IMG/VR virus record: IMGVR_UViG_2529292906_000009
Coordinates: 3,303-67,302 of that record
From: a virus
Taxonomy: Duplodnaviria; Heunggongvirae; Uroviricota; Caudoviricetes
Direction: 5' to 3' (one strand)
DNA: 64,000 nucleotides
The notes below the pieces were generated by a model. It was not told where the DNA came from and did not search any database. It saw only the letters and a list, made by a program, of their open reading frames with translations. A program made the position numbers and the translations under genes. This document shows, piece by piece, positions 28,934 to 29,717 of this stretch. Each line of letters opens with the position of its first letter. The first letter of the stretch is position 1.

Positions 28934-29717
28934 CATTCACCGCAACGGAAAGAGCATTCCTGGTGGACCTGTAGATTGGGATATGAACCCGTTACAGGAG
29001 AATGCTCTTACCTGTTACGTGCTCCGTTTCGTGGAGCTAACGGCGGGTGATCGGGCCGCACCAGACTGGACTTATTTCAGCGTTATGCTCATGCCAGAGA
29101 ATCAAACTGTGATGGTCGGTGCTGAACTCCGACACAGGGTTGTAGCAAGCCCCGCAAAGCGCGCACTACTGTAGTTGCGGCACATCAGCCTGTGCATTCA
29201 CCACAATGTTGAGAACACTGGTTGTCACGCTGCAACGCAACATTTATTCGTAGATTGGGATATGACCCCGTTACGCCAGTGTTCTCAACGTTGTAGTGCC
29301 GGTTACGGTTCCGGCCAGGCCTCTTCCTCAACGGGGTGTTCTCCATACGGACTACCGTTTATTGGTCGTTCCTGCGGTTTATGTTGTGAAGCCAGATGCT
29401 TATCTTCTGGTTGCTTCAAAGAGCTGCACTTCATCACAACGGTAAGAGCACTCGATGCATTTAAGCCAAGCCCCATAAGGGAGAATGCCCTTACCTGTTG
29501 TGTTGTGATGACCGGTGCTGATCTCCGGCTTGCGGTTATTTCAGACTCTCACGGGCGTTTAATTGCCCCGCCGAACAGCTCTTTTCCGCAATAGCTGCAA
29601 TGTCTTTCGCGCATCAGCCTGCGCATTCATCACAACGGTAAGGGTACTTCGTAGGGATTCGAACCCTCTGCCAAGCTCGGCGATCTCCGACGTCGCAAAA
29701 TACCCTTACCTGTTGTG
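28934..29717. repeat. Non-coding repeat-rich region with tRNA-fragment-like sequences
   Basis: Direct repeats GTAGATTGGGATATGA(A/C)CCCGTTAC (28971, 29250), GAGAATGC(T/C)CTTACCTGTT (28998, 29481), CCCTTACCTGTTGTG (29488, 29703, 30142), CATCAGCCTG(T/C)GCATTCA (29184, 29612); GGGTTCGAATCCC T-arm-like remnant at 29651-29670. Confidence 0.5.

What the first reader, a model, noticed from the sequence alone, without database searches (positions are those of the whole stretch)
28934..29717. Repeat-rich non-coding stretch with tRNA-fragment-like sequences next to the tRNA genes
Several 15-25-bp direct repeats recur here. One of them, CCCTTACCTGTTGTG, also abuts the 3' end of tRNA-Thr and reappears at 30142. 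A GGGTTCGAATCCC T-arm-like remnant lies at 29651-29670. This looks like decayed or rearranged tRNA genes, or repeated processing or recombination sites.
Basis: seen in the sequence. Interest (0 to 1): 0.45.

Follow-up and report, generated by a model that had tools for sequence, protein, structure and literature searches.

The report
Tandem structured RNA modules in P1
The "repeats" are the arms of five long RNA hairpins, each followed by a folded small-RNA-like unit, in the untranslated leader of phage P1's ban operon; the same unannotated RNA family occurs in many enterobacterial phages, often next to tRNA genes, and its function is unknown.

Summary
The window is a P1-like phage. CCCTTACCTGTTGTG occurs three times exactly (0.17 expected) and GGGTTCGAATCCC lies at 29654-29666.

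The repeats are not decayed tRNA genes. On the minus strand, the strand of the ban operon, they form a tandem array (28827-30160) of five modules. Each module is a roughly 20-bp hairpin ("A") with a hypervariable cap, followed by a "core". The core has a closing helix P1, an AAU linker, hairpins P2 and P3, and a variable arm.

Covariation across more than 200 IMG/VR loci supports every helix, including a 5-bp P2-P3 loop-loop contact. G·U pairs far outnumber A·C mismatches (97 to 11), which points to RNA on this strand.

Core C1 scores 42 bits against Rfam STnc100, below its threshold of 47. The other cores share that architecture only. T-arm-like hairpins recur in hairpin-A caps (12 of 122, 0.11 expected). 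Nearby tRNA genes are always on the same strand and often abut a core.

P1's annotated upl and plp ORFs lie antisense to this RNA and are not conserved.

Module number varies among P1 relatives by recombination at the repeats. The function is inferred, not shown: most likely processed small RNAs.

The parts
30524..30569 (-). Pban promoters and the C1 operator Op72 (start of the ban operon), placed by homology to the P1 annotation
   Evidence: P1 features at L001 3912-3957, mapped using the 98-99% identical alignment.
30338..30429 (-). Region annotated 'dicF-like' in P1, ending in a strong intrinsic terminator (stem 30346-30365 followed by U8)
   Evidence: No Rfam DicF match was found.
30071..30160 (-). 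Hairpin A5 (CACAACAGGUAAGGGCGCUG ... CAGCGUCCUUUCCUGUUGCG). It contains the third copy of the 15-mer.
   Evidence: -46.8 kcal/mol, z -5.2. Also.
29877..30070 (-). Divergent core-like segment C5. It ends in a P3-like hairpin GCCGG-AGACGUAC-CCGGC (29877-29894), 4 nt before tRNA-Asn.
   Evidence: It lacks the GUGAAU/P2 signature, so the assignment is weak.
29797..29872 (-). tRNA-Asn (GTT)
   Evidence: 74.5 bits.
29719..29794 (-). tRNA-Thr (TGT)
   Evidence: 72.9 bits.
29631..29717 (-). Hairpin A4. Its cap contains the T-arm-like hairpin GAGGG-UUCGAAU-CCCUA (29652-29668), 2 nt from the 3' arm.
   Evidence: -51.3 kcal/mol, z -4.9.
29502..29636 (-). Core C4. P1 is GUUGUGAUG/CAUCACAAC. P2 is GCGCA-GGCUGA-UGCGC (29609-29624). 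A 79-nt variable arm follows. P3 is GCCGG-AGAUCAGCA-CCGGU (29511-29529). The P2 loop GCUGA is complementary to the P3 loop UCAGC.
   Evidence: About 98% identical copies occur in lambdoid phages and in 1060 E. coli genomes.
29435..29501 (-). Hairpin A3 (contains the first copy of the 15-mer)
   Evidence: -37.8 kcal/mol, z -4.4.
29383..29440 (-). Short core C3 (GUUGUGAUGAAG ... CCAGA-AGAUAAGCA-UCUGG-CUUCACAAC). The same type lies upstream of the N-like gene in P22-like phage SPN9CC.
29299..29382 (-). Spacer S3, with a small hairpin CCGG-AACCGUAA-CCGG just before hairpin A2. This hairpin recurs before hairpin A in other phages.
   Evidence: read from the sequences.
29199..29298 (-). Hairpin A2 (23-bp arms, 91% complementary)
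   Evidence: inverted repeat I1; -54.8 kcal/mol, z -5.9.
29106..29207 (-). Core C2. P2 is GCACA-GGCUGA-UGUGC and P3 is GUCGG-AGUUCAGCA-CCGAC; both stems are compensated relative to C4. P1 is AUUGUGGUG/CAUCACAGU.
29022..29105 (-). Spacer S2, ending in the small hairpin CUCC-ACGAAA-CGGAG. This hairpin also recurs before hairpin A elsewhere.
   Evidence: L015, L018, L035, L037, L056.
28938..29021 (-). Hairpin A1
   Evidence: -37.4 kcal/mol, z -3.7.
28827..28946 (-). Core C1, the STnc100-like unit. P1 is GUUGCGGUG/CACCGCAAU and P3 is CCGGG-AGGCA-CUCGG. It ends 35 nt before the tciA start codon (28791).
   Evidence: RF02076, 42.0 bits (threshold 47), E 5.5e-7, model positions 31-147. Also.
28983..29594 (+). 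ORFs corresponding to P1 upl (28983-29174) and plp (29175-29594). They are judged spurious.

Best explanation
The region is part of a roughly 1.7-kb untranslated leader of the C1-repressed ban operon of a P1-like phage, read on the minus strand. The order is Pban, a dicF-like RNA with a terminator, module 5, tRNA-Asn, tRNA-Thr, modules 4 to 1, then tciABC, tRNA-Ile and ban.

Each module is a structured RNA with two parts. Hairpin A is a stem of about 20 bp, with a bulged A and often a U·U mismatch, that closes a hypervariable cap. The core follows. It has a 6-9-bp closing helix P1, an AAU linker, a 5-bp hairpin P2, a hypervariable arm of 12-160 nt, and a 5-bp hairpin P3 that abuts the 3' strand of P1. 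The P2 and P3 loops pair with each other over 5 bp. This gives a cloverleaf-like topology.

Shown: the RNA-level structure, the strand, the wide phage distribution, the association with tRNA genes, and the architecture shared with the Hfq-dependent prophage sRNA STnc100, to which PasD has been linked by others.

Inferred: the modules are cut out of the leader together with the tRNAs. RNase III would act on the long A stems. RNase P and RNase E would act at the abutting tRNA ends and at the single-stranded GAAU or A/C-rich linkers. The products would be stable small RNAs. The conserved frame would give folding, stability and protein binding, and the variable arm or cap would carry the specific activity, for example base-pairing with targets.
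For: Identity and operon context.

The minus strand folds better than the plus strand: -345 kcal/mol (z -7.3) against -321 (z -3.1).

Core structure on 71 distinct sequences: 97.3% of cells paired, 16 of 24 pairs changed on both sides, 0 of 500 shuffles as good, and slid controls at 26-53% paired.

The kissing helix was not used to select sequences. It is 96% paired. In a separate scan for P2-loop variants it shows compensation: GGUCGA with UCGAC in three different cores, GGCCGA with UCGGC, and GACUGA with UCAGU.

The two free positions in the search pattern covaried perfectly in the P2 stem: 97 G/C and 14 A/U, with no mixed combinations.

Hairpin A: 13 of 19 pairs changed on both sides, 0 of 500 shuffles as good. 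G·U pairs outnumber A·C mismatches 97 to 11.

Family link: C1 scores 42 bits (E 5.5e-7) against STnc100. The canonical STnc100 is P1, AAU, P2, P3 and then a terminator. STnc100 has been associated with Hfq, PasD is an Hfq-dependent sRNA validated by Northern blot and RIL-seq, and the two have been reported as structurally homologous (PMC8550237; bioRxiv 10.64898/2026.05.13.724894).

tRNA association: 24 of 127 distinct cores have a tRNA within 400 nt, all on the same strand. In 8 of them the tRNA 5' end lies 5-11 nt after the core end. In the window, tRNA-Thr ends one base before the A4 stem and C5 ends 4 nt before tRNA-Asn.
Against: No transcript ends or processing data were examined for P1.

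The window cores lack the intrinsic terminator and U-tail that canonical Hfq sRNAs of this family carry, so Hfq dependence may not transfer.

Only C1 is detected by the STnc100 model, and it scores below threshold. C4, C2 and C3 share the architecture only.

CRISPRi knock-down of this region gave no plaque defect on a laboratory host (PMC10695390), so any function is conditional.

Several P2-loop variants are not compensated (GGAUGA, GGCUUA, GGCUGU, GACUAA).

Helices P1 and P3 were used as selection criteria, so their percentage paired is partly circular.
Confidence: 0.5

Rival explanations
1. The modules are cis-acting transcription-elongation elements that keep RNA polymerase from terminating across the long untranslated leader and its terminators. 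This would be either a nut or rrn-like Nus-factor site (a boxA-like sequence plus a hairpin) or a put-like RNA that binds RNA polymerase.
For: The consensus hairpin-A 3' arm, CAGUGCUCUUUCCGUUGUGGUG, contains UGCUCUUU. That matches the first 8 nt of rrn boxA (from my knowledge of boxA) and lies 12 nt before hairpin P2.

A1 and A3 in the window carry UGCUCUUU and UGCUCUUA.

In lambdoid prophages the C4-type core lies between the repressor gene and the first early-left gene, yfdP. It points the same way as yfdP and is followed by an intrinsic terminator. In L062 it starts about 10 nt after a TTGACA-17-TACATT promoter.

In the window a strong terminator follows Pban.

About 25 of 104 cores have a terminator within 110 nt downstream.
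Against: The boxA-like segment is locked in a covarying helix of 19-20 bp, whereas NusB/NusE bind single-stranded boxA.

Many cores have no hairpin A at all.

HK022 putL and putR share no sequence similarity with the modules.

Modules also occur between structural genes and in virulent Ackermannviridae phages.

Five copies in one leader is more than a loading site should need.
Confidence: 0.2
2. The modules are functional tRNA mimics. They would act as substrates or decoys for tRNA-binding enzymes such as RNase P, TruB, TrmA, the CCA-adding enzyme or tRNA-cleaving defence nucleases. The variable arm would occupy the anticodon-arm position.
For: The core has a cloverleaf-like topology. P3 (5 bp) stacked on P1 (6-9 bp) is about as long as the T stem plus acceptor stem of a tRNA. 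The P2-P3 loop contact sits where the D-loop/T-loop contact lies in a tRNA.

True T-loop sequences (UUCGAAU and the like) on covarying 5-bp stems are enriched about 100-fold in hairpin-A caps and always abut the long stem.

The modules are strictly co-oriented with tRNA genes and often abut them.
Against: ARAGORN, the Rfam tRNA model and the YrlA model do not detect them.

The P3 loop is 9 nt long and is not a T-loop.

There is no conserved NCCA after P1; the tail is only rich in A and C.

The resemblance is one of topology only.
Confidence: 0.12
3. The modules are neutral or selfish repeats: mosaic junction sequences or MITE-like elements that persist because they promote recombination between phages, with no RNA function.
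For: Module gain and loss among P1 relatives has its breakpoints inside the repeats.

The same 135-nt core is about 98% identical in P1-like plasmids and in lambdoid prophages.

The genomic contexts are very diverse.
Against: Compensatory changes occur in four helices and in a loop-loop contact.

The strong excess of G·U over A·C (97 to 11) indicates selection on one transcribed strand.

All nearby tRNA genes are on the same strand.
Confidence: 0.08
4. The region consists of decayed tRNA genes, or it encodes the proteins Upl and Plp as annotated in reference P1.
For: There is a perfect T-arm-like 17-mer at 29652-29668, and the region is next to tRNA genes.

ORFs of 63 and 139 aa lie on the plus strand and are annotated in P1.
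Against: No tRNA or pseudo-tRNA match was found even at E<=10.

The T-arm recurs as a module with different stems in other phages.

Plp starts at TTG, runs antisense into tRNA-Thr, has no Pfam match, and is split across reading frames in the window, P7 and Ro157c2. It is N-terminally truncated in SJ46. Upl is absent from P7, D6 and SJ46.
Confidence: 0.04

Closest known systems
STnc100 (Rfam RF02076) and the PasD prophage sRNAs
   Same: The frame is the same: a closing helix (c/GUGGUG ... CACCAc/g), an AAU linker, a first hairpin, a variable middle, and a CCGG-loop-CCGG hairpin that abuts the 3' strand of the helix. Both are carried by phages and prophages. C1 aligns to model positions 31-147.
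   Different: C1 scores 42 bits, below the 47-bit threshold. C4, C2 and C3 are not detected. The window copies have no terminator and sit in tandem inside an operon leader, each preceded by hairpin A. The GCUGA/UCAGC kissing pair belongs to the commonest core type in my sample and is not evident in STnc100.
Stable RNAs co-transcribed with phage tRNAs (T4 species 1 and 2 RNAs; RNase P-processed C4 RNA of P1 and P7)
   Same: They are small structured non-tRNA RNAs in phage transcripts, matured by the tRNA-processing machinery. This comparison rests on my own knowledge of the literature.
   Different: There is no sequence or structural similarity to them. Processing of the modules described here has not been shown.
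Lambda nut, rrn boxA-boxB-boxC and HK022 put antitermination RNAs
   Same: Relatives sit just downstream of an early promoter. There is a boxA-like octamer followed by a 5-bp hairpin. The RNA is highly structured and lies ahead of terminators.
   Different: The boxA-like sequence is base-paired. There is no similarity to putL or putR. P1 has no known N-like protein. The modules also occur in structural-gene regions.
tRNA-like RNAs (YrlA/Y RNA, the tmRNA tRNA-like domain)
   Same: A long terminal stem carries a T-arm-like hairpin (A4 and 11 other caps). The core has a cloverleaf-like topology with a loop-loop contact.
   Different: The Rfam YrlA model hits only the real tRNAs (25.6 bits against a threshold of 69). 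No rsr gene was looked for.

Membership tests
STnc100 (RF02076) | Covariance-model score at or above the gathering threshold (47 bits) | tested here: not met
   C1 scores 42.0 bits, E 5.5e-7, over model positions 31-147 only. No match to C2, C3, C4 or C5 at E<=10.
STnc100 (RF02076) | Architecture: closing helix, AAU, hairpin, variable region, and a CCGG hairpin abutting the 3' strand | tested here: met
   Compared with the model consensus and structure line. The window cores fold this way.
STnc100 (RF02076) | Intrinsic terminator at the 3' end (an independent, Hfq-type sRNA) | tested here: not met
   No terminator-like site follows any window core. A terminator is present after 25 of 104 relatives.
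tRNA gene or tRNA pseudogene | Cloverleaf recognised by ARAGORN or the Rfam tRNA model | tested here: not met
   Only the three real tRNAs were found, with nothing in 28934-29717 even at E<=10.
tRNA gene or tRNA pseudogene | T arm (5-bp stem and a UUCRANY loop) | tested here: met
   GAGGG-UUCGAAU-CCCUA at 29652-29668. It stands alone, inside the cap of hairpin A4.
HK022 put RNA | Sequence and structure similarity to putL or putR | tested here: not met
   The putL and putR regions of NC_002166 were read directly. No shared motifs were seen by eye.
HK022 put RNA | Terminator read-through without protein factors, through binding to the RNA polymerase beta' zinc-binding domain | not testable with these tools
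   This needs transcription assays.
nut or rrn boxA antitermination site | A boxA sequence (YGCUCUUUA) that is accessible as single strand, followed by a hairpin | tested here: inconclusive
   UGCUCUUU or UGCUCUUA is present in A1, A3 and the family consensus, 12 nt before P2. However, it lies in a covarying helix.
YrlA / bacterial Y RNA | Rfam RF02553 match at or above 69 bits | tested here: not met
   The only match (25.6 bits) covers the tRNA-Thr and tRNA-Asn genes.
Protein-coding genes upl and plp | Reading frame conserved among relatives, or a recognisable domain | tested here: not met
   The frames are broken or truncated in the window, P7, Ro157c2 and SJ46. Upl is missing from three relatives. 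There is no Pfam family.
MITE- or REP-like mobile repeat | Terminal inverted repeats with target-site duplications, and selection at the DNA level | tested here: inconclusive
   Inverted arms are present. G·U outnumbers A·C 97 to 11, which argues for selection on RNA. Target-site duplications were not examined.

The most novel reading that the evidence does not exclude
Enterobacterial phages, both temperate and virulent, may share a family of tRNA-shaped RNAs built on a conserved frame that carries hypervariable inserts: the cap of hairpin A and the arm at the anticodon-arm position of the core. These would be expressed and matured together with phage tRNAs. They would work as exchangeable cassettes, either as programmable riboregulators or as decoys for host tRNA-directed enzymes and defence nucleases. 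P1 carries five in a row.
Probability: 0.15. Interest if true: 0.85.

Novelty: new variant of a known kind. Interest (0 to 1): 0.58.

Why it matters
P1 is a reference phage. About 900 bp of it, annotated as two proteins of unknown function, appears instead to be structured RNA read from the other strand.

The same modules lie unannotated in about a fifth of complete E. coli genomes (1060 of 5426) and in many Klebsiella, Salmonella, Cronobacter, Enterobacter and Citrobacter phages. One branch, STnc100, together with the PasD sRNAs that others have linked to it, is already tied to virulence regulation in EPEC and EHEC.

A defined structure with a testable loop-loop contact, a link to tRNA genes, and hypervariable inserts in a conserved frame gives concrete experiments. 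These could address what prophage small RNAs do and how they evolve.

Tried and rejected
Rfam search of 27500-31000 at E<=10. Only STnc100 (below threshold) overlapped the feature. The mir-142, mir-465, tmRNA, ALIL and plastid matches were judged to be chance.

HK022 put. I fetched the putL and putR regions and found no similarity.

Small minus-strand ORFs starting at (A/G)UGAAUGCGCAGGCUGAUG, for example MNAQADARK... Rejected because the "codons" form a hairpin with compensatory changes (GCGCA/UGCGC against GCACA/UGUGC) and the downstream sequence is hypervariable.

An integron attC-like reading of CACAAC...GTTGTG. The core sites do not fit RYYYAAC/GTTRRRY and no integrase is present (inspection only).

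Similarity to ERIC, REP or CRISPR repeats, checked from memory only. None was seen.

Mechanical analysis of flanking ORFs to get gene orientation. It was too noisy to use, because spurious ORFs such as plp overlap 40 of 104 elements.

Test for an encoded NCCA after P1. Only an A/C-rich tail was found.

A covariance model of the whole core was not built. The variable arm of 12-160 nt cannot be aligned, so spliced 5' and 3' blocks were used instead.

Literature searches found no description of the hairpin-A/core module, the kissing loops or the P1 array.

Full report
**Context.** The window is a P1-like phage-plasmid. The stretch 28800-30300 is 96.8-99.9% identical to P1, JL22 and RCS47. All genes around the finding lie on the minus strand. 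They are dmt (30546-32810), tRNA-Asn (29797-29872), tRNA-Thr (29719-29794), tciA (28357-28791), tciB, tciC, a tRNA with anticodon CAT (28007-28082) and ban (26356-27726). In the annotated P1 genome the C1-controlled promoter Pban (operator Op72) lies at the 3' end of dmt. A "dicF-like region" follows it. Two plus-strand ORFs, upl and plp ("putative lipoprotein"), are annotated across the finding. The finding therefore lies in a long leader between Pban and tciA.

**Checking the observation.** CCCTTACCTGTTGTG occurs exactly three times (29488, 29703, 30142), against 0.17 expected even with two mismatches allowed. GGGTTCGAATCCC is at 29654-29666. The repeat finder shows that the direct repeats are halves of inverted repeats. 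Read on the minus strand, each pair forms a long hairpin, CACAACAGGUAAGRG ... CYCUUACCGUUGUG. I call these A1 to A4. A fifth, A5 (30071-30160), lies upstream of the tRNAs. Each folds far better than shuffled controls, with z scores from -3.7 to -5.9. The whole 931-nt stretch folds better as the minus strand (-345 kcal/mol, z -7.3) than as the plus strand (-321, z -3.1).

**A second conserved element.** Each hairpin is followed by (G/A)UGAAU and a small hairpin. An exact-pattern scan of IMG/VR with GTGRTGAATGCRCAGGCTGATGYGC reached the 120-locus limit and gave 111 distinct contexts. This revealed a "core" with the following parts:
- a closing helix P1 (GUGGUG with CACCAC, extendable to 9 bp);
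- an AAU linker;
- hairpin P2 (GCGCA-GGCUGA-UGCGC);
- a hypervariable arm of 12-160 nt, median 72;
- hairpin P3 (GCCGG-AGAUCAGCA-CCGGC), which directly abuts the 3' strand of P1.

The window contains C4 (29502-29636) and C2 (29106-29207) of this type, and a short variant C3 (29383-29440). It also contains C1 (28827-28946), which the Rfam STnc100 model matches at 42 bits (threshold 47; E 5.5e-7). A divergent C5 ends 4 nt before tRNA-Asn. A canonical STnc100 found in one of the fetched contigs (75 bits) shows the same frame followed by an intrinsic terminator.

**Evidence for the structure.** I aligned 71 distinct spliced cores, taking the 5' block and the 3' block of each.
- P1, P2, P3 and a P2-loop/P3-loop helix are 97.3% paired.
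- Sixteen of 24 pairs change on both sides.
- None of 500 shuffles does as well, and slid controls drop to 26-53% paired.
- P1 and P3 were used to pick the 3' ends, so their pairing is partly circular. The loop-loop helix was not used for selection, and P2 was only loosely required.
- The two free positions in the search pattern covaried perfectly: 97 G/C, 14 A/U and no mixed combinations.

To test the kissing contact without bias, I scanned all of IMG/VR for P2-loop variants.
- Compensated: GGUCGA pairs with UCGAC in three cores that differ in variable arm and P3 stem. GGCCGA pairs with UCGGC. GACUGA pairs with UCAGU.
- Wobble-compatible: GGUUGA.
- Not compensated: GGAUGA, GGCUUA, GGCUGU, GACUAA and ACGUAA.

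Hairpin-A arms taken from loci where they were not part of the seed show 13 of 19 pairs changed on both sides, with 0 of 500 shuffles as good. They contain 97 G·U pairs against 11 A·C mismatches. That asymmetry is the signature of selection on RNA of this strand.

**Distribution and context.** Pieces of the region match 110 phage records. These include lambdoid, P22-like, Sashavirus, Uetakevirus and virulent Taipeivirus phages of Escherichia, Klebsiella, Salmonella, Cronobacter, Enterobacter and Citrobacter. Nearly all matches lie under no annotation.

The settings vary:
- the early-left leader (mEp460, phiNP, SPN9CC);
- between tail genes (MK54);
- after capsid genes (Sasha);
- near the terminase gene (BUCT554).

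The A4-C4 query (29502-29722), mostly through its C4 core, matches 1060 of 5426 complete E. coli genomes, at 719 chromosomal and 478 plasmid places. No listed match has any annotation beyond the flanking tRNA-Thr gene. In prophages it lies between the repressor gene and yfdP, on the same strand as yfdP. Inside the window the modules are confined to the ban leader.

**Link to tRNAs.** Of 127 distinct cores, 24 have a tRNA gene within 400 nt, and all 24 are on the same strand. In 8 of them the tRNA 5' end lies 5-11 nt after the core. In others the order is tRNA, hairpin A, core.

T-arm-like hairpins (a 5-bp stem and a UUCRANY loop) occur in 12 of 122 distinct hairpin-A caps, against 0.11 expected from shuffling. 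They have at least nine different stem sequences and always abut the long stem. ARAGORN and the Rfam tRNA model find no tRNA or pseudo-tRNA in the region.

**Coding potential.** Plp starts at TTG, is rich in cysteine and runs antisense into tRNA-Thr. Its reading frame is broken in the window, P7 and Ro157c2, and it is N-terminally truncated in SJ46. Upl is missing from P7, D6 and SJ46. Neither has a Pfam family. I regard both ORFs as annotation artefacts lying over a structured RNA.

**Module shuffling.** Compared with the window, reference P1 lacks exactly C4 plus A3 (200 nt), joined at the repeated CCUUACCGUUGUGAUGAA. SJ46 carries an A2/A1 hybrid that removes C2 and S2. P7 and D6 replace C2-S2-A1 with about 345 nt of different sequence, which in D6 carries a tRNA-Ser. 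Ro157c2 has an extra tRNA-Tyr and a 163-nt insert. The repeats therefore act as recombination points.

**Function.** Function is not shown. Relatives that carry a terminator are documented sRNAs. STnc100 has been associated with Hfq, and it lies 75 nt downstream of stx2B (PMC12370729). PasD is an Hfq-dependent sRNA validated by Northern blot and RIL-seq, and it has been reported as structurally homologous to STnc100 (PMC8550237; bioRxiv 10.64898/2026.05.13.724894).

I therefore favour (0.5) an array of small structured RNAs released from the leader together with the tRNAs, with the variable arm or cap as the active part.

The main rival (0.2) is a cis-acting antitermination or anti-Rho role. 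Points in its favour are the boxA-like UGCUCUUU in the hairpin-A 3' arm, the position behind early promoters and ahead of terminators, and the need to transcribe about 1.7 kb of untranslated RNA. Against it, the boxA-like segment is base-paired and HK022 put is unrelated.

A tRNA-mimic or decoy role (0.12) fits the topology and the T-arms but is speculative.

CRISPRi knock-down of this region gave no plaque defect on a laboratory host (PMC10695390).

**Unexplained.** GUUGUG at the end of hairpin A can pair either with the upstream CACAAC, closing hairpin A, or with the CACAAC after P3, extending P1 to 9 bp. The two helices therefore compete for 3-6 nt. I do not know whether this acts as a switch.

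**Novelty.** The literature searches found no description of the hairpin-A/core module, its kissing loops, the tRNA association or the P1 array. I rate the feature as a new variant of a known kind, namely prophage STnc100-like RNAs.

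Noticed in passing
window 30338-30429 (-): The region annotated 'dicF-like' in P1 ends in a strong intrinsic terminator (GCCCAUCUUCGGGUGGGCG followed by U8) only about 200 nt after Pban. Transcription must read through it to reach the tRNAs, tciABC and ban. Rfam gives no DicF match.
   Followed up: partly
window 30159-30329 (-); L009 and L011: The segment upstream of A5 (AAGUAAAUGCAAACGAUGAU...) resembles a roughly 120-nt block (AAGAUAAAUGCAAACGA...GGCGCACUGGCCCGGUGUGAUUAAUAAUGGGC) that precedes hairpin A in Klebsiella phages T751 (virulent) and MK54 and in several IMG/VR contigs. It may be a further conserved module.
   Followed up: no
window 28983-29594 (+): The P1 genes upl and plp look like spurious ORFs lying antisense to structured RNA. 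plp overlaps the complement of tRNA-Thr in reference P1.
   Followed up: yes
window 28007-28082 (-): ARAGORN calls the tRNA with anticodon CAT tRNA-Met. P1 annotates it as tRNA-Ile2 (ileX-like, presumably modified with lysidine).
   Followed up: no
window 29022-29040 and 29300-29320 (-): Small hairpins CUCC-ACGAAA-CGGAG and CCGG-AACCGUAA-CCGG lie immediately 5' of hairpins A1 and A2. They recur at the same place in unrelated phages (for example L015, L018, L035 and Sasha).
   Followed up: no
L002 2840-3150 (mEp460); L236 and L237: In lambdoid prophages the order is repressor gene, C4-type core, intrinsic terminator (GGCGGUACCAG...CUGGUACCGCUCUUUUU), a hairpin A with a fully covaried stem (ACAAAACAGAGAAGAGC...), then yfdP. 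No N-like gene is annotated between the repressor gene and yfdP in these records.
   Followed up: partly
window 30192-30370 (-): There are weak Rfam matches to permuted tmRNA (26 bits, E 0.013) and alpha-tmRNA (11 bits). Both are far below threshold and are probably chance.
   Followed up: no
L005 (phage D6) 1460-1546: The D6 record annotates a tRNA-Ser(UGA) and places all three tRNAs on the strand opposite to the ban operon. ARAGORN finds tRNA-Ser directly after a core in related IMG/VR contigs (L019, L066), so the D6 strand annotation is probably wrong.
   Followed up: partly
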